Below, piece after piece: positions 1 through 11,754 of a DNA stretch of 64,000 nucleotides. The stretch is from an uncultured Candidatus Saccharibacteria bacterium. GTDB lineage: Bacteria; Patescibacteriota; Minisyncoccia; Phycocordibacterales; UBA9973. Position numbers and translations under genes: made by a program. Positions within the stretch are counted from its first letter, which is position 1. Every line of letters begins with the position of its first letter. The stretch lies in assembly GCA_964591665.1 (NCBI GenBank), contig CAZQCV010000001.1, positions 178-64,177 of the forward strand, read 5' to 3'. The notes beneath the pieces are model-generated. The model made no database searches. It was not told where the DNA came from and worked only from the letters and a program-made list of their open reading frames with translations.

Positions 1-6
1 AATTGC

Positions 7-1572
7 ATGAAAGAACTCAAACCAAAATATTTTCTATACGCGCGAAAATCCACTGAAGATGACGATCATCAGATAATGTCTATTGAGGCACAACTTTTTG
101 AATTACGAGAATATGCGCGTAGAGAGAATCTTGAAATTCTTGATGAATTTCAAGAGTCGAAAAGTGCAAAGAAACCTGGTCGTGAACTTTTTAATCAAAT
201 GATGGCCCGTATTGAAAATATGGACGGCGTAGGTATTCTCGCGTGGCACCCTGATAGACTTGCTCGCAATAGTGTAGACGGCGGGCGCATCATTTACGCA
301 GTAGACACGACCAAAATAGTTTCTTTGCGATTTCCGACATTTTGGTTTGAGCCAACTCCGCAAGGGAAATTCATGTTGCAGGTGGCTTTCGGACAATCTA
401 AATATTATTCCGATAATCTTGTTGAAAATATTACACGCGGAATCCGCCAAAAAGTGAGACGAGGAGAATGGCTCGTGCGTGCGCCCTTTGGCTATATGAA
501 CAATCCGAAAACGAGAAATATTGAACCTCATCCGACCAAATCTCGTATTGTGGTAAAAGCGTTCGAAGAATATGCTAAAGGGACGCACACTCTCGACTCG
601 ATTTCTCACTTTTTGGCGGATCATGGCGTATCTACAAATGGTAAGCCACCTGCCAAAGCTTCCGTCGCTAAAATGCTCACGAGTCGCGCATATCTCGGAT
701 TTACACATCACAAAGGTGAATGGTATGACGGAAGCTTTGAGCCAATTATTTCTCCGACACTTTTTGAAGCAGTCCAAAAAATGCTTGCGAAAAAATCTCG
801 CCCAGTTAAACGTAAGGAGGCAAATCATTTCCCTTTTTCACAATTTGCAAGATGTGGTGAGTGCGGAAGTATGATTACGGCTCAATATGCCACTAATCGT
901 TTTGGTACTACCTATACATATTATCGTTGCACAAAAAAGAAAGGTGTTTGTCATCAGCCGTATCTATCTTCTTCCGCACTCATTTCGCAAGCAAAACATC
1001 TGCTTCAATCAGTGTCGCTTCCTCTTTCAGAAATTGAGAATATGGAAAAACAAATTGATATATGGGAAAAGGAAACAATTTCCGAAAGAGGAAGTGTTGC
1101 CCAAAATCTTAAAACCAAACTTTCCGAGACGAAGGAGAGATTAGACAAACTCGTTTCTTTATACTTAGACGGAGATATTGAACGAGAAATATATTTGCAC
1201 AAGAAAGATACTCTCCTTCGTCAGAAAGCAAAGTTTGAGGAAAGTTTTAAGGATTTTGAACAACAGAGAAAAAATTGGATCGAACCCTTGCGGAATTTCA
1301 TTTTGTCCTTGAAAGAAGCCATTTATTTGGAAAAAACCGAAAATTATTTAGAATGGAAAACTTTTTTCCAAAAAATCGGCTCTAACCCTGAAATCAAGGA
1401 CAAAACGCTTTCATGCAATTGGGGAGAGCTTTTTGAATTCACGGCTTCCGCCGTAGGCGGAAAGGGTTTGGAAAAATATGATAGCGCGATTTTGGCTCCC
1501 GCAAAATCGCTCCGCATTTCTAATTTTGCCGATGTATCTTTGGGTGGACTCAAGATTCTTTTCTTGGAATAG
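7..1572 (+). CDS. large serine recombinase (resolvase/invertase N-domain + recombinase domain + zinc-ribbon)
   Basis: N-terminal YARKSTEDDDHQIMSIEAQ matches the catalytic Ser motif of the resolvase family. The central recombinase domain and the Cys cluster CGECGS...YYRC (zinc ribbon) are typical of large serine recombinases. Confidence 0.85.
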   Translation: MKELKPKYFLYARKSTEDDDHQIMSIEAQLFELREYARRENLEILDEFQESKSAKKPGRELFNQMMARIENMDGVGILAWHPDRLARNSVDGGRIIYAVDTTKIVSLRFPTFWFEPTPQGKFMLQVAFGQSKYYSDNLVENITRGIRQKVRRGEWLVRAPFGYMNNPKTRNIEPHPTKSRIVVKAFEEYAKGTHTLDSISHFLADHGVSTNGKPPAKASVAKMLTSRAYLGFTHHKGEWYDGSFEPIISPTLFEAVQKMLAKKSRPVKRKEANHFPFSQFARCGECGSMITAQYATNRFGTTYTYYRCTKKKGVCHQPYLSSSALISQAKHLLQSVSLPLSEIENMEKQIDIWEKETISERGSVAQNLKTKLSETKERLDKLVSLYLDGDIEREIYLHKKDTLLRQKAKFEESFKDFEQQRKNWIEPLRNFILSLKEAIYLEKTENYLEWKTFFQKIGSNPEIKDKTLSCNWGELFEFTASAVGGKGLEKYDSAILAPAKSLRISNFADVSLGGLKILFLE

Positions 1573-1629: not shown

Positions 1630-2334
1630 TTAAGTCCTAATATATTTAACAAACTCTTTGCCCAATTCCGAAATCCTAAAGTGACCATTTCCATTATAAC
1701 TTGTACCCGCATCCTCTTTAAGTAACCCAACACCAACTAAATAATTAAGCTTTTCAAAAGTGTATTCATCATCTTTAAATTTTTCAAATCCTTTCATTTC
1801 ATAAAGTATAAATTGACCATATTGTTTAACATTCAATCCACGTTTTAGTTCGTGAATGAGTTGTTCAGGACTATATACGCCTCCTTTCTGTAACCATTTT
1901 TCGACAGTTCCATCAATCCAGATTTTTACAATTTCTATATCTTCGACAGAGACTATGCTTAAAATATTTGATATTTTTTCTAGTTCAAAATTTTCTTTAT
2001 CTTGGCTATCTATAAAACCCAGCAATATTCCTAATATTGCCTCTCTTTTTTTGTCGTTTCTTTCATTTAAATATTGTTGAAATGAAAATATAAAAGCTTC
2101 TTGAACTTGTTCATTTTGAAGTGTTTTACCTGTGAATTTATCAACATTCGTTGCTATATGTTTAAAAAACTCATTTGAGCGTTTTTCTTTAACTTTGACA
2201 ATCCCACCAAATATGGACTTACAGACAACATACAGGGCTTGTGCCTCAAGTGGTAAAGAATTCCAAACAAGCAACTCAGTTGAGTTGATCGTAAGATCTT
2301 TACTTATATTGACTGCAATTTGATTAAGATCCAT
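1630..2334 (-). CDS. hypothetical protein (third gene of an AT-rich 3-gene operon)
   Basis: 234-aa ORF on the same strand as the two upstream ORFs, with a 10-nt overlap onto the 2324..2830 ORF. No motif recognised. Very AT-rich codon usage compared with the core genes. Confidence 0.5.
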   Translation of the reverse strand: MDLNQIAVNISKDLTINSTELLVWNSLPLEAQALYVVCKSIFGGIVKVKEKRSNEFFKHIATNVDKFTGKTLQNEQVQEAFIFSFQQYLNERNDKKREAILGILLGFIDSQDKENFELEKISNILSIVSVEDIEIVKIWIDGTVEKWLQKGGVYSPEQLIHELKRGLNVKQYGQFILYEMKGFEKFKDDEYTFEKLNYLVGVGLLKEDAGTSYNGNGHFRISELGKEFVKYIRT

Positions 2335-2830
2335 GATTATTTTCTTTATTCCATATTTCTAAAAAGTCATTAATATCAGAATGAATATTTAACTCTACTG
2401 ATTTAACTTCTGGTTTATCTGTATCTTTCTGTTCTTCATTATAAAACAAATACATTACTTTTTTAAAATTCTCTGAAACTTTATATAACATAAAATTATA
2501 TTTAATTTTTTTATTAAAAACTAAATCATTCCAGTCATGGGCAAAGACATTTCTGGGAATTTTTATATTTTTACTCTGTGACTTGTTTTTCTCAGTTATA
2601 TAGTAATAACTTGAAAGTTTTATATATAATAATTGAATATTTAATTCTAATTGTATCATATCCTGATTGGTCTGAAACAAATCCATTATAGTAAAATGAT
2701 TAATATATGAATTCGTTGAACTTAAAGAAGTATTTGTCAATTTAAAGAATAGTTCCCTTCCTTCAGTTATGAAAGAAACTAAATGTGCAATTTCTTGTTC
2801 CAGTCTTTTTTTATTTTTTAATCCAATCAT
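2324..2830 (-). CDS. hypothetical protein (middle gene of the 3-gene operon)
   Basis: 168-aa ORF lying 18 nt downstream of the 590-aa ORF and overlapping the next gene by 11 nt, which suggests translational coupling. No recognisable domain. Confidence 0.45.
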   Translation of the reverse strand: MIGLKNKKRLEQEIAHLVSFITEGRELFFKLTNTSLSSTNSYINHFTIMDLFQTNQDMIQLELNIQLLYIKLSSYYYITEKNKSQSKNIKIPRNVFAHDWNDLVFNKKIKYNFMLYKVSENFKKVMYLFYNEEQKDTDKPEVKSVELNIHSDINDFLEIWNKENNHGS

Positions 2831-2848
2831 TATGTTAGTTTGCTTATT

Positions 2849-4621
2849 TTAATCAATATGCTTACCAAAAACCGATTTATTTGAGAAGAAATTGGAAAAG
2901 TCTTTATTTTTTATAATCGGGTCTTTCTTTGTTTTATTAAAGACATATTCAGATAAACCATATGAGACACTATGGAACTTCGCCCTTTTAGTTATTGAAA
3001 TCCAATCTTTTGCAAATTCTTTTAATGCTGTACCTGAATCTTTTGGATCAAACAAACTCCATAATGTCTCCATATCATCCAAACACATAAATAAAGGAGG
3101 GTTATCTTGTAGATGTGTGAGGTTTTTTTGTACAATGTGTGTATTGTAGAAATCATTAAAATTATTAAATAATTCATCATCACCCAAGATATTTTCAGTT
3201 ACTAAAATTGGAATAATAGTTTTACCTTCAATTTGGTTATTTTCTATATACTGATTTAGCTTAAGCAACTTTCCTTTTTCTTTTTTCACGACTCTTGCAA
3301 GTGGATCATTTCTTCCTTCATTAAATAAAATAAGATATGCATCTTTAAGAAACTCCTCACAACTTGTATTATAAATTGAAGGTAAGCGATAATATTCAGT
3401 GGTAAATTCTATTATAAAAACAACATCATCTTGTATAATAACGGCATCTGCTCCAGAAGTTGCTCCAATCTGTATCTTGGATCCTTTGAAAATATTTTCA
3501 GTTAAAAATTGAAAATATTTCTCCATTAAACGTCCATACGATGATTTGAAACTTCGCAATTCACCTTTACTTTTTATACGCCAAAGCAATCCGCCACAAA
3601 CATTTTCAATAAGAAATTTTAAGTCAGTAATACAATATAAACCATCAGACATTTTAAAAATTGGATTATCAAAAAAAATTCTTATATTTTTATTAAATCC
3701 ATCTATTATATATTCTCTCTCTTCTTCTTCTAATATTGAAGTTTTAAGAGATTGAATATCTTTAGAGAGTATATCTATAATCCTCATAAAAGATGGATCT
3801 TTTTCAAAAAGCTCAGAACGAATATAGAATGAATCAGGATTTCTCCAATCAAATCCAAGTTTATCTTGACCATCAGGAAGTTGTATCTTGTCAGAAGTTG
3901 ATGGAATTTCTAAAAACCATATATATAAACCATGCAAAACTTTCATATATTCTGCAAGGGTAACACCTTCTTTCTCTTCAAAACTAGTAATACCTTTTTG
4001 TATTGTCTCTTTATCATGCTCCTCTAACTCAAGCAAGAGAGCTTCATAGCAATAAGCATAGCGTCTTATTCTACGTTTATAAATCATTGTCGAGACTTCG
4101 GGTAGATAGTAGTGTGGCCATTCTCTTATAAAATAATCTCTGAGAAACTTACCATTTTTATAATCTTGTTCTTTCTCCTCAATAGTAGTAATACTATTAG
4201 TTAGTAGCAATGCTTCAGAATATTTTTTCTGATTAGCAACGTGACTTTGCCCAATAAGCATCTGTGTACCAAATCTATCTTGTGAAATAACCTTAGTGAT
4301 AAGATTAAGTAAACTTTCTCTATGAAATAAGACTTTATGTGATAAATCTCTTTCGCCTTTTCGTAAAACATTGGATTCATACAGTAATCCAGCACCTTTT
4401 TCAATAGTTACTTCCGTTATAGAAGTCTGACATATCATATTAAGAAAACAACTAAATTGTATAAGTTGAGTAGGATCTATATTACTTAGAAGATATATTA
4501 TTTGTGTTTCAAAATCTGTCTCTGATTTTAAAATATCAATTGGAAATGTAATACCACCTTTTTCAAAAGTTTTAAATATTTCAGAATAATGAAGATAGGT
4601 AACTAATTTAGTTTCGCTCAT
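2849..4621 (-). CDS. hypothetical large protein (590 aa), possible degenerate PD-(D/E)xK-like segment
   Basis: Long uninterrupted ORF and first gene of the operon. The segment GADAVIIQDDVVFIIEFT weakly resembles a restriction-endonuclease-fold core (D...D/ExK) but has no Lys. Nothing else recognised. Confidence 0.5.
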   Translation of the reverse strand: MSETKLVTYLHYSEIFKTFEKGGITFPIDILKSETDFETQIIYLLSNIDPTQLIQFSCFLNMICQTSITEVTIEKGAGLLYESNVLRKGERDLSHKVLFHRESLLNLITKVISQDRFGTQMLIGQSHVANQKKYSEALLLTNSITTIEEKEQDYKNGKFLRDYFIREWPHYYLPEVSTMIYKRRIRRYAYCYEALLLELEEHDKETIQKGITSFEEKEGVTLAEYMKVLHGLYIWFLEIPSTSDKIQLPDGQDKLGFDWRNPDSFYIRSELFEKDPSFMRIIDILSKDIQSLKTSILEEEEREYIIDGFNKNIRIFFDNPIFKMSDGLYCITDLKFLIENVCGGLLWRIKSKGELRSFKSSYGRLMEKYFQFLTENIFKGSKIQIGATSGADAVIIQDDVVFIIEFTTEYYRLPSIYNTSCEEFLKDAYLILFNEGRNDPLARVVKKEKGKLLKLNQYIENNQIEGKTIIPILVTENILGDDELFNNFNDFYNTHIVQKNLTHLQDNPPLFMCLDDMETLWSLFDPKDSGTALKEFAKDWISITKRAKFHSVSYGLSEYVFNKTKKDPIIKNKDFSNFFSNKSVFGKHID

Positions 4622-4751: not shown

Positions 4752-5221
4752 TCAAACCTCTTTATTTTCAACATTTTTGACATATTTCTCTATGCTATGG
4801 TGCTTTATAACTGAACGCTCCCTTCCATCTCGTAAAACCTCTTGTACAAGCCTAGGAATGGTCTTAGGAAAGGTGGTAGATAAGGTAGAATATCCATATT
4901 TATAGCGTGTTGGTGTATACCAGCGTATAAGGAAGATAAGTGGTAATCCTGTCTTTCTAAGCGTATCTAAGCCTTGTACAAAGGTGGTAATAGGATCAAG
5001 GAGCATATAGGAATACTACAAGGTACGAGAATACAATCTATACCCTCTTCTACTGTCGGATTATTATAGCTTTCAGCATATGTTCGATCTGGATCATCTT
5101 TGTATTGTTCATAAAGGCTGAGATCTATGCTGATGTTGTTATATCCTTCTTTGTGAAGAAGTTGGATGGCATCGTGGAAAGAGTCTTCGTTATTTTCGAG
5201 TTCAATGTTGAGAGGTTTCAT
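4752..5221 (-). pseudogene. probable frameshifted gene remnant (two overlapping 84-aa ORFs in different frames on the same strand)
   Basis: ORFs 4967..5221 and 4752..5006 are collinear on the minus strand and overlap by 40 nt in different frames, consistent with one ~150-aa gene broken by a frameshift. Product unknown. Confidence 0.3.
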
Positions 5222-5255: not shown

Positions 5256-6140
5256 TTAGTAACATTGAGTCCTTAAATCACCAACCACCGTTTTACTAGT
5301 TGTACAATCTAGAGAATACAAAGAAGGTATTGAAGAAGGCGGTGTTGCAACAGGGGTGACTGTTGGTAACTTACTGGATGAACTATAATGACTTGATAAA
5401 CCAGCCATTATTCCATCTTTAGTAGTTTTCATTTTTCTTGAAGCAACAGACCATTCTTGACTTAATGCAGTTAATTTGGACAGTTGGTCTTTGTATGACT
5501 GTATTTTTTGTTTTTGAATCTCTAGTTGCTCAATACTATTAATTTTATGTAAGTCATTAGTAAAATATGCCTGTTCAGTTTTTAATCTAGATAGCTCAGC
5601 TTGAATAAACTTTCTTGCCTTTATTTCATCTTTGTAAAAATCTATTTGTTGCTGGTCTATTTTAGTAATATAATCCATTAAATAAATAGAATTTGGGTCT
5701 CCTTTTTTAAAACCCTCTGAGAGATTGATATTATCCTCAAGATCTAAGATTTGCCGTTCCGTAGAATCAATGAAAAGACCTTCCAACGATTGCTGAGTAT
5801 TATAACTTATGATTTGTTTCGTGAAGAGATTAATTACTTCGTTACGATAGTTTGCTACGTCATCTGATTCTTTTTTCTCTAAACCTGCATTTTGAATTGG
5901 CAAATTTGTTTTATTCTTGGATGGTTTTATCACAGCAGATTCTTTAACAGGAACCTCTGAAATAATTTCTTTTTGATTAATGATTTTAGTTGATTCTTGG
6001 TTACTTTGAACTTGTGTAGTTTTTCTAAAAAACATATTTGGAAACCATGTAAAAGGATTCCACCATGAAGCAAAAACAAACTGAGGAATAAAAACTAAGA
6101 GCGTGACAACTAATGAGAATAAATATTTTTTGTTTTTCAT
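5256..6140 (-). CDS. secreted or membrane-anchored coiled-coil protein with Ser/Thr/Pro-rich C-terminus
   Basis: N-terminal hydrophobic segment LFSLVVTLLVFIPQFVFA (signal or anchor), a long heptad-like Q/E/K-rich middle, and a C-terminal SSSSKLPTVTPVATPPSS tract. Confidence 0.5.
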   Translation of the reverse strand: MKNKKYLFSLVVTLLVFIPQFVFASWWNPFTWFPNMFFRKTTQVQSNQESTKIINQKEIISEVPVKESAVIKPSKNKTNLPIQNAGLEKKESDDVANYRNEVINLFTKQIISYNTQQSLEGLFIDSTERQILDLEDNINLSEGFKKGDPNSIYLMDYITKIDQQQIDFYKDEIKARKFIQAELSRLKTEQAYFTNDLHKINSIEQLEIQKQKIQSYKDQLSKLTALSQEWSVASRKMKTTKDGIMAGLSSHYSSSSKLPTVTPVATPPSSIPSLYSLDCTTSKTVVGDLRTQCY

Positions 6141-6230
6141 AATAAGTCACTGGTTTTAATTAGTAAAATGCAAAAAGCCCACCACATAAGGGATGATAGC
6201 TTTCGCTACCCATACACCTTTCGATGTACG

Positions 6231-6279
6231 ACCAGTGACGGAAGCCCCCTATGATGATGGGTTCTTTACACGTCACTGG
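6231..6279. other. perfect 9-bp inverted repeat (CCAGTGACG...CGTCACTGG) forming a stem-loop in the relatively GC-rich divergent intergenic region
   Basis: Read directly: ccagtgacg at 6231-6239 and cgtcactgg at 6271-6279 with a 31-nt loop. It sits in a local GC-rich patch within an otherwise AT-rich spacer. Confidence 0.3.
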
Positions 6280-6400
6280 ATTTTTCACCATGCCTCTATT
6301 ACTAAAGGTTTAGGCTACTACTTATTTGGTTGTAAGGATATTATATAAAAATTACCTTTAAAAAGAAAGCTTTTTAAGCTTAAAATAGACACTTTCTAAC

Positions 6401-6467: not shown

Positions 6468-8456
6468 ATGTATACAGAAACTCTTAATTCACAGATTAAG
6501 CCAGTCCCCTTTCAACTTTATGATTACCAAAAACCAATCGTAAAGAAAGCCTTAGATACTATTCTTAAAGGAGAAAACGGATTGATAGTACAGCCAACTG
6601 GAACCGGTAAGACGGTGGAAGCGGCCTTTATAGCTCGTGCATGTATCCTTCTTCATAAAAAAAGAGGTTTATATGTTTACGATGCTAATGATGGGCTCGA
6701 ACAAGCCCGAAAAAAGTTCGAAGAGATATTCAATGGTAATGATATTTCCTGTGCTAATTTCTTTGGCTATGGAAAAGAAGACCATGTGCGTACTGCTAAT
6801 ATCGTATTTGCTTCGTATCAATCACTAAATCACTATAAGGAAAAAGCGTACAAAACGTTTGATCCAACTCATTTTGATTTTATCATTGTCAACGAAGCAC
6901 ACCACGGTGAAGCAGTTACCTACAAAGAAGTCATTCAACACTTTACCTGTCCTAAAATTGGTATGACTGCAGTACCTGAGCGACAAGACGGAAAAGACAT
7001 ACTTAACATATTCGATAAGATTATCCATGAGATACTTTTTGAAGAAGCTTTAGTAAAAGGTTGGATTGCACAAATAGAATATCATGTTCTATCGAGCGGT
7101 CTTTCAACCCAAAACCTAAAAGCAATATGTGAAGATGTCTTAGAAAAAGGCAAACGAATCACTATTAAACAGCTTAATGAATCAATTTTTGTTGAGAAGT
7201 TAGATAATGAAATCCTTGCCGAGATTCACAAGTATGCGTTTCCTGAAAATCGAGCACCACTTCAAACACTTATTTTTTGTGAAAACATCAGACATGCAGA
7301 ATACATGTTAACCATGTTAAAAGATTACAATAGAAGTGTTGATGTCGTGCATTCGAAAAAAGGTAAAACACATAACCGTAATGCAATCAGAGATTTTAAG
7401 GCAAAAAAGTTTCAGTTCTTGATTTCTGTTGACCAGTTAAATGAAGATATTGATATCCCACAAGTTGAGCTCGGAGTTTTTCTCAGAGCAACAAACTCAA
7501 AAAATATCTGGTATCAACAACTTGGAAGACTACTTCGTAGAACGAAACTTAAACAAAAAGCTATTGTCTTAGACTTTGTTGCAAATATTCAACGCTTAGT
7601 AGCTGTACAGGAATTATCCAAAAGAGTGGAAGAAATGGCAAAACTTCAGAAACCTCTAGTAGAACTATTACCTCTTGAAAAAGATGTAATAAATGTCTCT
7701 GGTGAAGGATTCAGTTTTGACTTCTCAGATTATACAGTTGATATTCTAAAAACCGTTGCTGCGATAAATAAGGGTAGATACTCTACTTATATTGAGGCAA
7801 AGGAAGCTACAGAGAAATTGAAAATCAAAAGTGGTATTGAATATTATGCTAGATATAAAGAAGATCCAGGGCTTCCTAGTGCTCCTAGTTTATTCTATAA
7901 AGATAAAGGTTGGCTAGGATGGGATGATTTTCTAGGAACATTTTATTCTACCTATGAAGAAGTTGTCGAAGCTGTAAGAAAACTGCAGATTAAAGATCAA
8001 ACTGATTATAGGTATCGTTACAAGGAAGATCCTAAACTTCATTCTGCTCCATATCTCTTTTATAAAGACAAGGGTTGGATAGGTTGGCCTGAGTTGTGCA
8101 ATGCACTTAGTGAAAGGAGAAAATTCTACACTTATGCTGAAGCAGTTGAGGTAGTAGCTAATCTTAAAATTAAGGATAGGATTGATTATAACGAGAAGTA
8201 TAAGCAAGATCGTAAACTTCCTCGTAATCCTCACTTTATTTATAAAGATAACGGTTGGATAAATTGGTTGCTATATCTTAGTAAATATTATGAGACCTGT
8301 GAAGAAGCCGCACAAGCAGCTAGAAAACTCAGGATTAAAAGCTCTGATGATTACAGATTACGATATAAAGAGGATGAAAAACTTCCGTGCAATCCAGATA
8401 GCTTCTACAAAAACGAAGGTTGGATAAATTGGCCTAAATTTTTAGGTAGAAAATAA
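6468..8456 (+). CDS. SF2 (DEAD/DEAH-like) helicase with four C-terminal tandem repeats
   Basis: Walker A QPTGTGKT, motif II VNEAHH, motif III TAVPE, motif VI QQLGRLLRR. The C-terminal ~220 aa is four repeats of ~54 aa with the signature Y..YKED.KLP..P..(F/Y)YKD.GWI.W. Confidence 0.8.
   Translation: MYTETLNSQIKPVPFQLYDYQKPIVKKALDTILKGENGLIVQPTGTGKTVEAAFIARACILLHKKRGLYVYDANDGLEQARKKFEEIFNGNDISCANFFGYGKEDHVRTANIVFASYQSLNHYKEKAYKTFDPTHFDFIIVNEAHHGEAVTYKEVIQHFTCPKIGMTAVPERQDGKDILNIFDKIIHEILFEEALVKGWIAQIEYHVLSSGLSTQNLKAICEDVLEKGKRITIKQLNESIFVEKLDNEILAEIHKYAFPENRAPLQTLIFCENIRHAEYMLTMLKDYNRSVDVVHSKKGKTHNRNAIRDFKAKKFQFLISVDQLNEDIDIPQVELGVFLRATNSKNIWYQQLGRLLRRTKLKQKAIVLDFVANIQRLVAVQELSKRVEEMAKLQKPLVELLPLEKDVINVSGEGFSFDFSDYTVDILKTVAAINKGRYSTYIEAKEATEKLKIKSGIEYYARYKEDPGLPSAPSLFYKDKGWLGWDDFLGTFYSTYEEVVEAVRKLQIKDQTDYRYRYKEDPKLHSAPYLFYKDKGWIGWPELCNALSERRKFYTYAEAVEVVANLKIKDRIDYNEKYKQDRKLPRNPHFIYKDNGWINWLLYLSKYYETCEEAAQAARKLRIKSSDDYRLRYKEDEKLPCNPDSFYKNEGWINWPKFLGRK
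7778..8447 (+). repeat. four tandem ~160-nt coding repeats inside the helicase gene
   Basis: Four peptide units beginning YSTYIEAKEA..., YSTYEEVVEA..., FYTYAEAVEV... and YYETCEEAAQ... . Each unit ends in YKDxGWIxW. Confidence 0.6.
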
Positions 8457-8486
8457 TTACAACACTTTTACATTAAATAACTAAAC

Positions 8487-8520
8487 CTGTCTATCTTAAA
8501 TGATAGGCAGTTTTTTATTT
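8487..8520 (+). terminator. rho-independent terminator after the helicase gene
   Basis: Stem ctgtctatc/gataggcag (one G-U pair), loop ttaaat, followed by TTTTTTATTT. Confidence 0.5.
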
Positions 8521-8582
8521 GTATTTTTACTTTATTTATTGTTGCACTGGAAAGCTTCCAAATAAAAAGGTAAAATATAGTT

Positions 8583-9341
8583 ATGAATGAGAAGCTTGTC
8601 GACGGACTCAAAAGACGGTTTGAGACAATAGAAAAGGCCCAATTTCGTGGCAATCAACATATTGCGTATGTAGAGTATTTTACTTTTATATTACAAAATC
8701 CCTTAACAACAACTACTGCTAAAGGCCTTCTACTTCAAGAGGGACATTTCTTAAATAAAAACCTTTTAAGCTATCTTTTTGCAACTTCAGTACTAACGGA
8801 TAATTACTCACTTATTTTAAAGGAGATTGACTATATTCAATCTTATATACAAGAGACGCTTGATGAAAAGAAAAAAGGGAAAGGTATAAAATTAACAGAG
8901 AAAGATGTACGTTCAATTGCAGAAAGAAATAACCAAAAGACTAATGAGCTTGAAAAAGAAACGGACCTGAATTTGTTAAATGTATTTCATCATAAACTCA
9001 TTGATAGATTGCATGGTATGGTAATTAAAATACCTTTAACTTTTTCTAAACTTAGAGGTATAGCTTTAGCGTCAGATCCAAGTAAATTTTATAAACCTGC
9101 AAATGGTTCTGACCGGCTTGAATATTTAAGTAAAATCATACAAAAGAAAGGTATTTCGATATTATCAAGGGATCTTTCTCAAAATGTAGGCAAAAAAAGA
9201 CACATTAACCAGATGATTATAGTAAGTACAGCAATCAAGAATATCAATGAAACCATAAAGAAGAAACTAGGCTTAAAACATAACGTCATTCTAAATAATG
9301 ATGGATATATGCTCAACACAGAAGACTATGATTTTTTGTAA
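8583..9341 (+). CDS. hypothetical protein (252 aa)
   Basis: ORF on the same strand between the helicase and the HTH protein. No recognisable motifs. Confidence 0.45.
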   Translation: MNEKLVDGLKRRFETIEKAQFRGNQHIAYVEYFTFILQNPLTTTTAKGLLLQEGHFLNKNLLSYLFATSVLTDNYSLILKEIDYIQSYIQETLDEKKKGKGIKLTEKDVRSIAERNNQKTNELEKETDLNLLNVFHHKLIDRLHGMVIKIPLTFSKLRGIALASDPSKFYKPANGSDRLEYLSKIIQKKGISILSRDLSQNVGKKRHINQMIIVSTAIKNINETIKKKLGLKHNVILNNDGYMLNTEDYDFL

Positions 9342-9461
9342 GTTAATTTGTAGTTAACGTTAATATCCTCTAAAAAAGCAATTAAAATATCGCTTTTTTT
9401 CTTTTACAAGTTAATAAAAGGCTAATATTTGCTAGAAAAAAAATATGCTTGAATAGAGTAT

Positions 9462-10013
9462 ATGGAGAAATTCAGAGACACAAAAGAAAGAACAGGAAAG
9501 TTTTTCATGAACGACCTAGTGCTGGATAAATATGCACGTTATCTTGGTATTTATGCAACAGGAGTATACATGTCACTTTGCAGACACTTTAACTATGCTA
9601 CAGGAACTTGTTTTCCATCGAAAGAAACGATGGCTCAGAAACTTGGTATCTCAGAAAGAAAAGTTTATGACGCAATAAAGCAATTAAAAGAGCTAAATTT
9701 AATCCAGGTTACTTCCCAAGGAAAGAAAGAGGACGGTTCATATAAAAATAATGTGTATAAATTATTGGATAAATCACATTGGTTGGATCCTTTGTTGTTC
9801 TATGCCGACGGCACAGGAAAACATAAACCGTCAGCACGTGGAGGCAAAACCCATAGGCACCGTATGCCTAATAAGGATACACATAGTAAGGATACAAATA
9901 ATAAGGGAGATATTAACATAGAAAGAACAGGAGAGCCTATAAATCCAATGAAGCAATTTAGAGAGAAGAAAGATGCTCTGGTCAAATCTATAACTATTGA
10001 TTACAATGGATAA
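9462..10013 (+). CDS. helix-turn-helix protein resembling phage/plasmid replication-initiator or replisome-organiser N-terminal domains
   Basis: The pattern ...FPSKETMAQKLGISERKVYDAIKQLKELNLI... is typical of winged-HTH Rep/DnaD-like proteins (HTH_36-like). The C-terminus is basic. Confidence 0.5.
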   Translation: MEKFRDTKERTGKFFMNDLVLDKYARYLGIYATGVYMSLCRHFNYATGTCFPSKETMAQKLGISERKVYDAIKQLKELNLIQVTSQGKKEDGSYKNNVYKLLDKSHWLDPLLFYADGTGKHKPSARGGKTHRHRMPNKDTHSKDTNNKGDINIERTGEPINPMKQFREKKDALVKSITIDYNG

Positions 10014-10218
10014 GCTACATGCCAAATTAATAAACGATGCTGTCTTTGTACCTGAAGAGGGGCAACGTGATTTGGTATGTAGCAATACAAAGTCGTTTCG
10101 TTGTCCCTCTTTGGGTATTAATTCTAATCAAGTCTCGGAAGAAATTGCACTCGATTACTTTGCAGGTATTTTAGTAAAAGCATTCCTTGATAAAAAAGAA
10201 AATGATCACAAACAATAA
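9997..10218 (+). CDS. small hypothetical protein (73 aa), possibly a recombination directionality or accessory factor
   Basis: Short ORF bridging the HTH gene and the recombinase, overlapping both by a few codons. No motif, so it could be spurious. Confidence 0.2.
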   Translation: MITMDKLHAKLINDAVFVPEEGQRDLVCSNTKSFRCPSLGINSNQVSEEIALDYFAGILVKAFLDKKENDHKQ

Positions 10219-11743
10219 TAAGAAAGCAGTACTTTACTGCCGAGTGTCTACTAAAGAGCAGGTTGATGAAGGTAATAGTCTTAGTACACAGGAAAAGACA
10301 TGTAGAGAATACTGCGCTAAAAATGACTATGAGATAGCTAAAGTCTTCTTAGAACAAGGTGAAAGTGCTAAGACTGCTGATCGCACCGAACTTCAAAAGC
10401 TGTTGACTTACTGTGCTGATAAAAAGAATGGCATAAAAGCTATTATCATATACAAAGTAGATCGTCTTTCCCGTAATACCGACGATTACAGTCAAATTAG
10501 GCTTTTCCTGAAGCGTTATGGTGTAGAAATCAAATCTACCTCTGAACACTTCGAAAACAGTCCTGTGGGGCGTTTTATGGAGAATACGATGGCCAACATA
10601 GCACAGTTCGATAACGATGTACGTTCTGAACGCTGTGCTGCAGGAATGATGGAGGCTGTACGAGAAGGTCGTTATGTATGGATGGCTCCTATAGGCTATG
10701 ACAACGTAAAAGTGAACGGTAAATCTACCATAGCTATGAATGAATTTATGGGTTCTTTGATGCGTAAAACTTTTGAACTCATAGCTTCTAATATTCATTC
10801 AACAGAAGAAGTAAGACACCTTATGACCGCAGAAGGTCTATTAAATAAAAAAGGGCAGCCACTTTCAAAAAGTTATTTCTATAGTGTACTTACCAATAAG
10901 TTATATACTGGACGAATCATTAAGTTTGGAGAAGAGCATATGGGTTTATTTGAACCGATCATCTCAGATGAACTATACGACCAAGTACAACGTGTATTAA
11001 AGGGTAAAGGACGGAAACATTCTCAATATCTTACTGACAACCCTGATTTCCCTCTTAAAAGATTAATTACAGATGAGAATGGTAAATTACTTACAGGTAG
11101 TTGGTCTAGAGGTGGTAGACTTAAAAAATATCCTTACTACCGTTTTGGAGATAACAAATCAAGTCACAACAGAGATAAGTTTGAAAAAGCATACATGCAA
11201 TATGTTGATCAGTTTGCTTTTGATCAGAAAAGATTAAGTCGACTGAAAGAATTAGTAAGAGAAAACCTAACAAGAGCAACAATGACTCAACGCAAAGAAG
11301 AAGAAAAACTTAAGAAACAAATAATTGAACTCAAAGAAAGACAATCAAATATCATTAAGAAAAACTTTGATGGTATCATTTCGGACACCGTTCTACAACA
11401 ACAATCAGCAATGATAGAAAAACAGTTACTAGATGCAAATACTTTGCTCATGAGTATGCCTAATACTGAAACAGATTATGATGAAGCATTATTATTCGTA
11501 GAAGAATATCTAAAAAACCCAAGTAAAATATGGAAAGAAGCAAATCTTGATGTAAAAATTAAACTACAATGGTTCCAATTCCCCTCAGGTATCGTGTATA
11601 AAAATAATACTTTTGGAACCACCGAAATGTGCTTATTTTTCAAAGCAAAAGACGCCTTTTCGGCGTCTAAGTCTGCTATGGTGGACCCTACAGGACTCGA
11701 ACCTGCCACCCCATCATTGCAAATGATGTGCTCTACCAGATGA
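10187..11743 (+). CDS. large serine recombinase (integrase), 3' end overlapping tRNA-Ala
   Basis: N-terminal AVLYCRVSTKEQVDEGNSLSTQE is a resolvase catalytic-Ser motif, followed by a recombinase domain and a coiled-coil C-terminal region. The last ~22 codons run antisense through the tRNA-Ala gene. Confidence 0.85.
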   Translation: MIKKKMITNNNKKAVLYCRVSTKEQVDEGNSLSTQEKTCREYCAKNDYEIAKVFLEQGESAKTADRTELQKLLTYCADKKNGIKAIIIYKVDRLSRNTDDYSQIRLFLKRYGVEIKSTSEHFENSPVGRFMENTMANIAQFDNDVRSERCAAGMMEAVREGRYVWMAPIGYDNVKVNGKSTIAMNEFMGSLMRKTFELIASNIHSTEEVRHLMTAEGLLNKKGQPLSKSYFYSVLTNKLYTGRIIKFGEEHMGLFEPIISDELYDQVQRVLKGKGRKHSQYLTDNPDFPLKRLITDENGKLLTGSWSRGGRLKKYPYYRFGDNKSSHNRDKFEKAYMQYVDQFAFDQKRLSRLKELVRENLTRATMTQRKEEEKLKKQIIELKERQSNIIKKNFDGIISDTVLQQQSAMIEKQLLDANTLLMSMPNTETDYDEALLFVEEYLKNPSKIWKEANLDVKIKLQWFQFPSGIVYKNNTFGTTEMCLFFKAKDAFSASKSAMVDPTGLEPATPSLQMMCSTR

Positions 11744-11754
11744 GCTAAGGGCCC
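11679..11754 (-). tRNA. tRNA-Ala (anticodon UGC), CCA encoded
   Basis: The reverse complement folds as a cloverleaf GGGCCCT/TA/GCTC-ATCTGGTA-GAGC/A/CATCA-TTTGCAA-TGATG/GGGTG/GCAGG-TTCGAGT-CCTGT/AGGGTCC/A/CCA. It has the G3:U70 Ala identity pair and a TGC anticodon. Confidence 0.85.

What the first reader, a model, noticed from the sequence alone, without database searches (positions are those of the whole stretch)
1630..4621. Tightly coupled 3-gene operon of unknown proteins (590 aa, 168 aa, 234 aa) as island cargo: candidate novel defence or other accessory system
Three co-directional ORFs have an 18-nt gap and a 10-nt overlap. They have the most extreme AT content in the window and no recognisable catalytic motifs, apart from a weak, Lys-less PD-(D/E)xK-like stretch (GADAVIIQDDVVFIIEFT) in the large protein. 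They sit directly next to a serine recombinase. Small unknown operons embedded in integrative elements are where new anti-phage systems are usually found.
Basis: inference. Interest (0 to 1): 0.75.

Follow-up and report, generated by a model that had tools for sequence, protein, structure and literature searches.

The report
Orphan nuclease gene plus two unrelated passengers
The three tightly packed genes are real cargo of a mobile island in a candidate-phyla-radiation bacterium, but they are not a conserved three-part system: only the large one, an unannotated restriction-enzyme-like nuclease that elsewhere sits beside known anti-phage genes, is a credible new defence candidate.

Summary
Three minus-strand ORFs (590, 168 and 234 aa; 18-nt gap, 11-nt overlap) lie in the most AT-rich stretch of the window.

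In 23 A loci, 8 B contexts and 5 C contexts, no two of the families co-occur outside this one lineage.

B has a HEPN-style RNxFAH motif, but fold and profile tests are inconclusive. C is unassigned.

The adjacent 521-aa recombinase belongs to a separate 3.8-kb element with clean att sites (core CCACC) that is absent from a sibling contig. The operon's own island is led by a LOOT RNA that recurs in such islands.

The parts
2849..4621 (-). Gene A, 590 aa: N-terminal helical domain (about residues 1-320) plus a C-terminal PD-(D/E)xK (FokI/BspD6I/Upx-like) nuclease domain
3386..3454 (-). Core of A's putative active site (residues 390-412: G-A-D392-A...E405-F-T407-T-E-Y-Y-R). Other conserved residues are D333, E367, K451 and E476
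   Evidence: Invariant columns. In 104 aligned superfamily members D333, E367, D392 and E405 are near-universal; position 407 is K in 27 and T in 73; K451 is K/R in 66/73 of the T class
2324..2830 (-). Gene B, 168 aa: small alpha/beta protein seen only in Patescibacteria-labelled or unlabelled records, function unassigned (HEPN-like motif)
2537..2554 (-). B's invariant R93-N-V-F-A-H98 motif (Rx4H, HEPN-style)
   Evidence: R93 and H98 invariant in 30 sequences; read directly from the sequence
1630..2334 (-). Gene C, 234 aa: rare orphan protein (6 clusters), unassigned; overlaps B's end by 11 nt
   Evidence: no Pfam or PDB-sequence hit; contexts
6195..6316 (-). LOOT RNA (Rfam RF03000), full length, at the head of the minus-strand cargo string 294aa-84aa-84aa-A-B-C
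   Evidence: 88.2 bits against a gathering score of 46.4. The same position and orientation recurs in L005, L006, L007, L010 and L041 and in L064, L091 and L106
4752..6140 (-). Upstream cargo genes on the same strand: a 294-aa coiled-coil-like protein (5256-6140) and two overlapping 84-aa ORFs (4752-5006, 4967-5221), all unassigned
6468..11754 (+). Integration/replication-like module of the operon's own island: SF2 helicase with INT_rpt repeats (6468-8456), a 252-aa protein, an HTH_36 protein (9462-10013), a 513/518-aa serine recombinase (10187-11743), abutting tRNA-Ala (11679-11754, minus strand)
1543..1547 (.). 5-bp att core (GGTGG on the + strand, which is CCACC in L001 orientation): junction of a separate 3.8-kb integrative element inserted about 80 bp beyond gene C
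   Evidence: L001 against L002; attB, attL, attR and an internal inverted attP copy
7..1572 (+). 521-aa large serine recombinase of that separate element (NOT part of the operon's island); the element continues beyond the window start
   Evidence: Pfam; absent from sibling contig L002, which keeps A-B-C at 100% identity

Best explanation
The locus is the distal cargo end of an inferred integrative island of about 10 kb in a Patescibacteria (probably Paceibacteria) genome. The island is driven by a serine recombinase and abuts tRNA-Ala. Three independently mobile accessory genes have been packed into one transcription unit behind a LOOT RNA leader.

Gene A is the functional core. It is a new, unannotated family of PD-(D/E)xK nucleases of about 580 aa, with an N-terminal helical recognition or sensor domain and a C-terminal FokI/BspD6I-type cleavage domain. 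It most likely cuts invading DNA in a Mg2+-dependent way. No cognate methyltransferase is present, so it probably acts as a solitary, trigger-dependent or modification-dependent nuclease (like Upx or a type IV enzyme) and not as a classical R-M endonuclease. Its canonical beta-3 lysine is replaced by Thr. K451 of a clade-specific K-G-K helix, or K335, may replace it.

B (a small protein with an Rx4H motif, possibly a HEPN-type RNase or a regulator) and C (unknown) are co-translated passengers. Their pairing with A is specific to this lineage.

Shown: gene reality, the fold of A, conservation of the acidic residues, defence-island neighbourhoods, lack of co-occurrence, and the island and element architecture. 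Inferred: nuclease activity, the defence role, lysine relocation, and any role for B or C.

For: Active site: D333, E367, D392 and E405 are near-universal in 104 members. 27 distant members have E-x-K exactly where A has E-x-T. K451 is K/R in 66/73 of the T class but in only 5/16 aligned K-class members.

Defence context of A homologues: a Dsr1-like protein of 1131-1196 aa lies immediately upstream (gaps of a few nt) in L007, L009, L010, L011 and L041. Type IIG R-M appears in L015, L016, L017 and L019; type III Mod+Res in L018 and Res in L012; PDC-S39 in L019; Fic/RhuM in L020 and L023. L039 and L040 carry a relaxase and a T4CP. A serine recombinase lies within 10 kb in 7/21 loci. The distribution is patchy and spans several phyla.

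No methyltransferase within +/-10 kb of the window operon.

Non-co-occurrence: profile searches for B and C in 20+3 A loci, and for A, B and C in all B and C loci, found nothing.

Island: tRNA-Ala and recombinase, low GC, recurrent LOOT-led cargo architecture.
Against: There is no experimental or direct evidence of nuclease activity or phage defence for any family member. The canonical catalytic Lys is absent from A's clade, so A could be catalytically dead. The K451 covariation is confounded by phylogeny, and model coordinates could not be inspected to confirm that K451 or K335 reach the active site. PADLOC has no model that hits A, B or C. Defence-gene adjacency was scored on only about 23 loci without a genome-wide background. 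A also occurs on conjugative elements, so it could serve the element itself. The tight coupling (18-nt gap, 11-nt overlap) is what a functional operon looks like, so a lineage-specific functional interaction among A, B and C cannot be excluded. The island's distal boundary is inferred; no empty site was found for the large island.
Confidence: 0.55

Rival explanations
1. One reading: A, B and C together form a genuinely new three-component defence system whose parts work only together.
For: Co-directional genes with an 18-nt gap and an 11-nt overlap. The trio is kept at 100% identity in 20 or more contigs from several samples. Each family is individually seen in or near R-M loci elsewhere: C between type III Mod and Res in L035, B beside a type III system in L027. 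Genes downstream of A carry an R[NS]xxxH motif in 3/11 loci against a 4.6% background.
Against: No two of the three families co-occur in 23 A loci, 8 B contexts and 5 C contexts. The 20+ contigs that carry the trio are a single lineage. hhalign finds no homology between B and the motif-bearing 149-aa gene downstream of A in L007 (probability 1.3%). The family sizes differ widely (about 217, 33 and 6 clusters).
Confidence: 0.1
2. A is an ordinary type II/IIS restriction endonuclease (recognition domain plus FokI-like cleavage domain) whose methyltransferase lies elsewhere or was lost. On this reading it is an orphan REase remnant and not a new kind of defence gene.
Against: No methyltransferase lies within +/-10 kb in the window lineage. 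An unprotected active REase would be lethal. The adjacent methylases belong to self-sufficient type IIG or type III enzymes that carry their own nuclease parts. The most frequent tight partner is a Dsr1-like protein and not a methylase. The canonical Lys is missing.
Confidence: 0.15
3. A is a catalytically inactive or non-defence PD-(D/E)xK-fold protein that serves the mobile element itself (for example nicking or processing during transfer, exclusion, addiction or anti-defence). The defence-island adjacency merely reflects shared integration hotspots.
For: The beta-3 Lys is replaced by Thr throughout A's clade. A lies directly after a T4 coupling protein and near a relaxase in L039 and L040, and near T4SS pilins in L041. 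It is frequently within 10 kb of serine recombinases. The nickase N.BspD6I is among the best structural matches.
Against: All four acidic residues stay invariant across lineages only about 32% identical, and a compensating conserved Lys appears exactly in the Thr clade; that argues for retained catalysis. Translational coupling to Dsr1-like sensors in 5 loci is typical of defence modules. A was not found on viral contigs or in the plasmid and phage collections.
Confidence: 0.15
4. B and C form a toxin-antitoxin or abortive-infection pair (B a HEPN RNase toxin, C its antidote or regulator) that merely sits downstream of A.
Confidence: 0.1

Closest known systems
Upx (single-gene PD-(D/E)xK anti-phage nuclease; PDB 9wuf; PMC13099982)
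   Different: Only 12% identity, and no PADLOC or HMM hit. Upx is 1212 aa with a second N-terminal mini-nuclease and a canonical D1161/E1176/K1178 triad. A is 590 aa with E-x-T in place of E-x-K, and there is no evidence for a second nuclease site.
Type IIS restriction enzymes FokI and BspD6I (N.BspD6I nickase plus small subunit)
   Different: No cognate methyltransferase within +/-10 kb. The catalytic Lys is not at the canonical position. The N-terminal domain is all-helical and has no demonstrated DNA-recognition fold. The recurrent partners are a Dsr1-like protein or complete type IIG/III systems, not a dedicated methylase.
Dsr1 (defence-associated sirtuin 1), through the recurrent upstream partner of A homologues
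   Same: In 5 loci, proteins of 1131-1196 aa match PADLOC Dsr1 model PDLC04166 over about 900 C-terminal residues (E 1e-43 to 1e-49) and are tightly coupled to A.
   Different: The window has no Dsr1-like gene. Those partners show no Pfam SIR2 domain (0 Pfam hits), and the PADLOC match skips the model's N-terminal 290 positions. They may therefore be sensor-only proteins that use A as effector; that is an inference and was not tested.
HEPN-domain RNases (HEPN/MNT toxins, Abi-type HEPN proteins), compared with gene B
   Same: B has an invariant R-N-x-F-A-H motif that fits the Rx4-6H signature with a polar residue after R (established knowledge: Anantharaman et al. 2013). It is mostly helical, of similar size, and occurs in accessory regions.
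   Different: Fold evidence is non-specific, and there is no support from Foldseek or Pfam. A three-stranded sheet follows the motif. No MNT-type partner is present.
LdgA and DdgA: experimentally selected defence proteins reported as almost exclusive to Patescibacteria, without known homology (PMC12366544)
   Same: They are orphan defence proteins restricted to Patescibacteria, the same category that B and C would fall into.

Membership tests
PD-(D/E)xK / restriction-endonuclease-like fold superfamily (gene A) | Core alpha-beta-beta-beta-alpha-beta fold shared with solved restriction endonucleases | tested here: met
PD-(D/E)xK / restriction-endonuclease-like fold superfamily (gene A) | Acidic residues of the bipartite motif (D at the start of beta-2, D/E in beta-3, often an E on helix alpha-1) | tested here: met
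   D392, E405 and E367 (plus D333) are invariant in alignment A1 and present in at least 96% of 104 superfamily members.
PD-(D/E)xK / restriction-endonuclease-like fold superfamily (gene A) | Catalytic Lys two residues after the beta-3 acid, (D/E)-x-K | tested here: not met
   A has T407. 73/104 members have T and 27/104 have K at this column. K451 or K335 might compensate, but this is inferred from covariation only.
PD-(D/E)xK / restriction-endonuclease-like fold superfamily (gene A) | Divalent-metal-dependent phosphodiester cleavage | not testable with these tools
   Needs biochemistry.
Type II/IIS restriction-modification system (gene A as the R subunit) | A cognate DNA methyltransferase encoded adjacently | tested here: not met
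   No methyltransferase Pfam family among the called genes within +/-10 kb. Methylases next to other A homologues belong to complete type IIG or type III enzymes.
Upx defence system | Sequence-profile membership (PADLOC/DefenseFinder model) and a dual-nuclease architecture | tested here: not met
   No PADLOC family hits A at E<=1. Whether that library holds an Upx model was not checked. A is half the length of Upx and only 12% identical over the structural alignment.
Conserved multigene defence system (A+B+C) | Co-occurrence of the component families in the same neighbourhood across diverged genomes | tested here: not met
   hmmsearch with A, B and C profiles on six-frame ORFs of 23 A loci, 8 B contexts and 5 C contexts found no pair co-occurring outside the window lineage.
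HEPN domain (gene B) | Conserved Rx4-6H motif | tested here: met
   R93 and H98 are invariant in 30 sequences, with consensus P-R-N-A-F-A-H.
HEPN domain (gene B) | HEPN four-helix fold with specific similarity to solved HEPN proteins, or a profile match to a HEPN family | tested here: inconclusive
Toxin-antitoxin pair (B+C) | The two families are conserved as an adjacent pair | tested here: not met
   No C homologue in 8 B contexts and no B homologue in 5 C contexts.
LOOT RNA (Rfam RF03000), the leader of the cargo strand | Covariance-model score above Rfam's gathering threshold over the full model | tested here: met
   88.2 bits against 46.4, model positions 1-121/121.
Site-specific integrative element (the 3.8-kb block carrying the 521-aa recombinase) | An occupied and an empty site that differ by a precise insertion with a shared core at attB, attL and attR | tested here: met
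   L002 lacks L001 13080-16919. The core CCACC is shared by attB (L002), attL, attR and an internal inverted attP copy, 438/442 identical.

The most novel reading that the evidence does not exclude
The A family is a previously unrecognised modular effector nuclease of bacterial immunity. It would be a FokI-like PD-(D/E)xK enzyme with a relocated catalytic lysine that is plugged in behind different sensors. The candidate sensors are SIR2-less Dsr1-like proteins in five lineages and small Rx4H (HEPN-like) proteins such as B in others. Together these would be new two-gene defence systems concentrated in Patescibacteria, carried by serine-recombinase islands whose cargo is led by LOOT RNA.
Probability: 0.22. 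Interest if true: 0.7.

Novelty: new member of a known kind. Interest (0 to 1): 0.45.

Why it matters
Very few defence systems are known in Patescibacteria/CPR (PMC12366544 says so explicitly), and these organisms have tiny genomes, so whatever accessory genes they keep is informative.

Gene A defines an entirely unannotated nuclease superfamily of about 200 clusters that spreads across phyla. It repeatedly sits inside defence islands and is coupled to Dsr1-like proteins that lack a detectable SIR2 effector. That makes a concrete hypothesis testable: sensor plus trans-acting nuclease.

The systematic Lys-to-Thr change, with a clade-specific conserved Lys on another helix, would add a further active-site variant of the PD-(D/E)xK fold.

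The negative result also matters. Tight operon packing in an island is not evidence of a system; here it joins three independently mobile genes.

Separately, linking the orphan LOOT RNA to the cargo boundary of serine-recombinase islands gives that RNA its first genomic context.

Tried and rejected
- Profile libraries (Pfam, NCBIfam, PADLOC, PHROGs) on A, B and C gave nothing. Scanning every member of the B and C alignments and 10 distant A relatives against Pfam also gave nothing, apart from SEC-C motifs on two relatives.
- PDB sequence-profile searches with the A, B and C alignments gave nothing significant.
- tblastn of A and of distant relatives against plasmid and phage collections gave no useful hit.
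- Viral-contig scans for A, B and C found none.
- Cluster names for relatives are all 'hypothetical'.
- Homology between B and the L034 DUF4145-like protein, the L007 149-aa RNSFMH protein, and the L043 RNKIVH protein was rejected by hhalign (probability at most 1.3%).
- The 235-aa gene after A in L041 is not a C homologue.
- B's various upstream partners are not homologous to each other or to A.
- Promoter and terminator scans were not above the shuffled expectation.
- Direct repeats of tRNA-Ala marking the far island end were not found, which is expected for serine integrases.
- A raw DNA-pattern scan for LOOT on viral contigs gave mostly chance matches; only 3 of 80 passed nhmmer.
- The afdb50 fold library was unavailable.
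- LdgA and DdgA sequences could not be obtained.
- The Dsr1-like partner has no PDB sequence match.
Full report
OBSERVATION. The three ORFs are present as described, on the minus strand. A is 4621..2849 (590 aa), B is 2830..2324 (168 aa) and C is 2334..1630 (234 aa). The A-B spacer is 18 nt. B and C overlap by ATGGATCTTAA, which is 11 nt including B's stop codon. GC is 26-29% over 2-4 kb, the lowest in the window, against about 38-42% elsewhere. A large serine recombinase (7..1572, +) converges on C. None of the three proteins hits Pfam, NCBIfam, PADLOC or PHROGs. All three are nevertheless real genes: A has 69 homologue clusters at 32-56% identity, B has 33 and C has 6.

ARE THE THREE A SYSTEM?
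- I fetched 20 species-level A loci from genomes of many phyla: several Patescibacteria classes, Syntrophales, Thermodesulfobacteriota, Nitrospirota, Draconibacterium and a gammaproteobacterium. I added three more A contexts, eight distinct B contexts and five C contexts.
- Profile searches with A, B and C on the six-frame ORFs of all these loci found no case where two of the families are neighbours.
- The trio is seen only in 20 or more contigs that are 100% identical to the window, which is one lineage.
- B's flanking genes are unrelated to one another.
- C occurs alone next to GNAT genes (L005), after an unrelated 233-aa gene (L034), between the Mod and Res genes of a type III R-M operon (L035), and downstream of an RHS-type toxin locus (L036-38).

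An exhaustive profile search found 217 representatives (E<1e-3), many of the same length of about 550-650 aa and none with a Pfam domain. I aligned 104 full-length members to the profile.
- D333, E367, D392 and E405 are essentially universal.
- The residue two positions after E405 is Lys in 27 distant members, giving the canonical ...D...E-x-K.
- It is Thr in 73 members, including all of A's clade.
- The Thr class specifically conserves K451 within a K-G-K motif (66/73) and K335 (50/73). The Lys class mostly does not.

A relocated lysine is plausible, but phylogeny confounds the covariation and I could not inspect the model coordinates.

CONTEXT OF A ELSEWHERE.
- In five loci (L007, L009, L010, L011, L041) A is separated by only a few nucleotides from an upstream protein of 1131-1196 aa. 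That protein matches PADLOC's Dsr1 model over about 900 C-terminal residues (E 1e-43 to 1e-49) but shows no Pfam SIR2 domain.
- In L016 and L017 A follows a type IIG enzyme, and one lies nearby in L015 and L019.
- In L018 A follows a type III Mod+Res pair; L012 has a Res.
- In L019 a PDC-S39 gene follows A. In L020 and L023 Fic/RhuM genes flank it.
- In L039 and L040 A sits behind a relaxase and a T4 coupling protein. In L041 it is near T4SS pilins.
- Large serine recombinases lie within 10 kb in 7 of 21 loci.
- A was not found in the plasmid, phage or viral-contig collections.

This is the signature of a horizontally mobile defence-island gene. The sample is about 23 loci and I did not compute a genome-wide background. 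In the window lineage there is no methyltransferase within +/-10 kb. That argues against a classical R-M role and for a solitary enzyme that depends on a trigger or on DNA modification.

There is one hint. Strict R-[NS]-x3-H motifs occur in three of B's unrelated upstream partners: RSKYVH, RSAIIH and RNKIVH (3 observed against 0.5 expected, P about 0.015). They also occur in three of eleven genes immediately downstream of A homologues: B itself, the 149-aa RNSFMH protein of L007/L010, and PDC-S39 with RNLIAH. The background is 4.6% of proteins. hhalign finds no homology beyond the motif.

It remains unassigned.

ISLAND ARCHITECTURE. The window's contig (L001) and a sibling contig from another sample (L002) are identical across the operon. 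L002 lacks a 3,840-bp block (L001 13080-16919) that carries the 521-aa recombinase, a 159-aa ORF, an EamA transporter gene and an HD_4 gene. The junctions are clean.
- attB in L002 is ...GAGT-CCACC-ATAG...
- attL is ...GAGT-CCACC-CAAAG...
- attR is ...GACA-CCACC-ATAG...
- An internal 447-nt segment is an inverted, intact copy of the circular junction, 438/442 identical.

Hence the recombinase 'directly next to' the operon belongs to a separate small integrative element that landed about 80 bp beyond gene C (core at window 1543-1547).

The operon's own island runs from that point to tRNA-Ala (11679-11754). It carries a second serine recombinase (10187-11743), an HTH_36 protein, a 252-aa protein and an SF2 helicase with INT_rpt repeats on the plus strand. 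The cargo genes lie on the minus strand. Beyond the far end lie a G2L4-like reverse transcriptase and UmuC/UmuD-like genes, probably chromosomal. The extent of the large island is inferred, because no empty site was found for it.

LOOT RNA. Rfam finds a full-length LOOT RNA (RF03000, 88 bits) at 6195-6316 on the minus strand, in the divergent gap between the helicase and the first cargo gene. The same arrangement recurs in L006, L007, L010, L041 and L005, and in three IMG/VR contigs verified by nhmmer and tblastn. In each case LOOT is on the cargo strand; in the five loci with gene calls it lies 55-71 nt upstream of the first, non-homologous, cargo gene. It is divergent from a large serine recombinase module in 8 of 9 loci. 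It is absent from all non-Patescibacteria A loci. I found almost no literature on LOOT.

CONCLUSION. The finding is real as an observation. As a 'three-gene system' it fails the co-occurrence test. What remains is a new, unannotated PD-(D/E)xK nuclease family (A) with a non-canonical active-site variant and a defence-island lifestyle, plus two orphan passengers. I rate it as a new member of a known kind, namely solitary nuclease-type defence genes, with moderate interest. The more novel reading, A as a modular effector for Dsr1-like or HEPN-like sensors, is not excluded but is unproven.

Noticed in passing
window 6195-6316 (-); also L005 7797-7915, L006 6338-6464, L007 2213-2338, L010 1859-1978, L041 634-768, L064 8400-8513, L091 5002-5108, L106 5244-5344: A full-length LOOT RNA (Rfam RF03000, function unknown) sits at the head of the cargo strand. 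In the loci with gene calls it lies 55-71 nt upstream of the first, non-homologous, cargo gene. It is divergent from a large serine recombinase module in 8 of 9 loci examined. It looks like a hallmark of patescibacterial serine-recombinase integrative islands, at the boundary between the integration module and the cargo.
   Followed up: partly
window 1-1547, continuing upstream of the window (L001 13080-16919): A 3.84-kb integrative element carries a 521-aa serine recombinase, a 159-aa ORF, an EamA gene and an HD_4 gene. It is present in L001 and absent in L002, with the core CCACC at attB, attL and attR. It holds an internal inverted intact copy (447 nt) of its own circular junction, so the circular form would have two 447-nt inverted repeats separating two unique segments, a layout reminiscent of the yeast 2-micron plasmid.
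   Followed up: partly
L007 6514-9984, L009 418-3921, L010 6526-9990, L011 871-4266, L041 3407-6997: Dsr1-like proteins of 1131-1196 aa match PADLOC model PDLC04166 over the C-terminal 900 residues or so, but have no detectable SIR2 domain or any other Pfam hit. Each is tightly coupled to an A-family nuclease. They could be a sensor-plus-nuclease two-gene defence module.
   Followed up: partly
L029 4833-6017, L042 5061-5960, L043 4281-5348 (genes upstream of B homologues); L007 11786-12235; L019 11732-13492: Mutually unrelated proteins that flank B or A homologues carry strict HEPN-style R-[NS]-x3-H motifs: RSKYVH, RSAIIH, RNKIVH, RNSFMH and RNLIAH. The enrichment over background is modest (P about 0.015).
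   Followed up: partly
window 6468-8456 (+): An SF2 helicase (ResIII plus Helicase_C) has four C-terminal 'integrase repeat' (INT_rpt) units. PADLOC matches it to the helicase parts of type IV mREase and PbeA models, but no nuclease domain was detected. It lies divergent from the cargo strand.
   Followed up: no
window 10187-11743 (+) against 11679-11754 (-): The island's serine recombinase ORF runs antisense through 65 nt of the tRNA-Ala gene. This suggests that integration into the tRNA gene extended the reading frame.
   Followed up: no
L001 17322-18548 (just outside the window start), next to IMS/UmuC and Peptidase_S24 genes: A 408-aa reverse transcriptase has as its best PDB sequence match a 'group II intron-like 4' (G2L4) RT of identical length (E 2e-16). 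It lies adjacent to Y-family polymerase and UmuD/LexA-like genes, which may form a DNA-damage-tolerance cluster.
   Followed up: no
L035 3844-10794: A type III R-M operon is interrupted by extra genes in the order Mod - 82 aa - C homologue - 199 aa - Res (split into 171 + 719 aa) - 255 aa - NERD. The C family can evidently sit inside an R-M operon.
   Followed up: no
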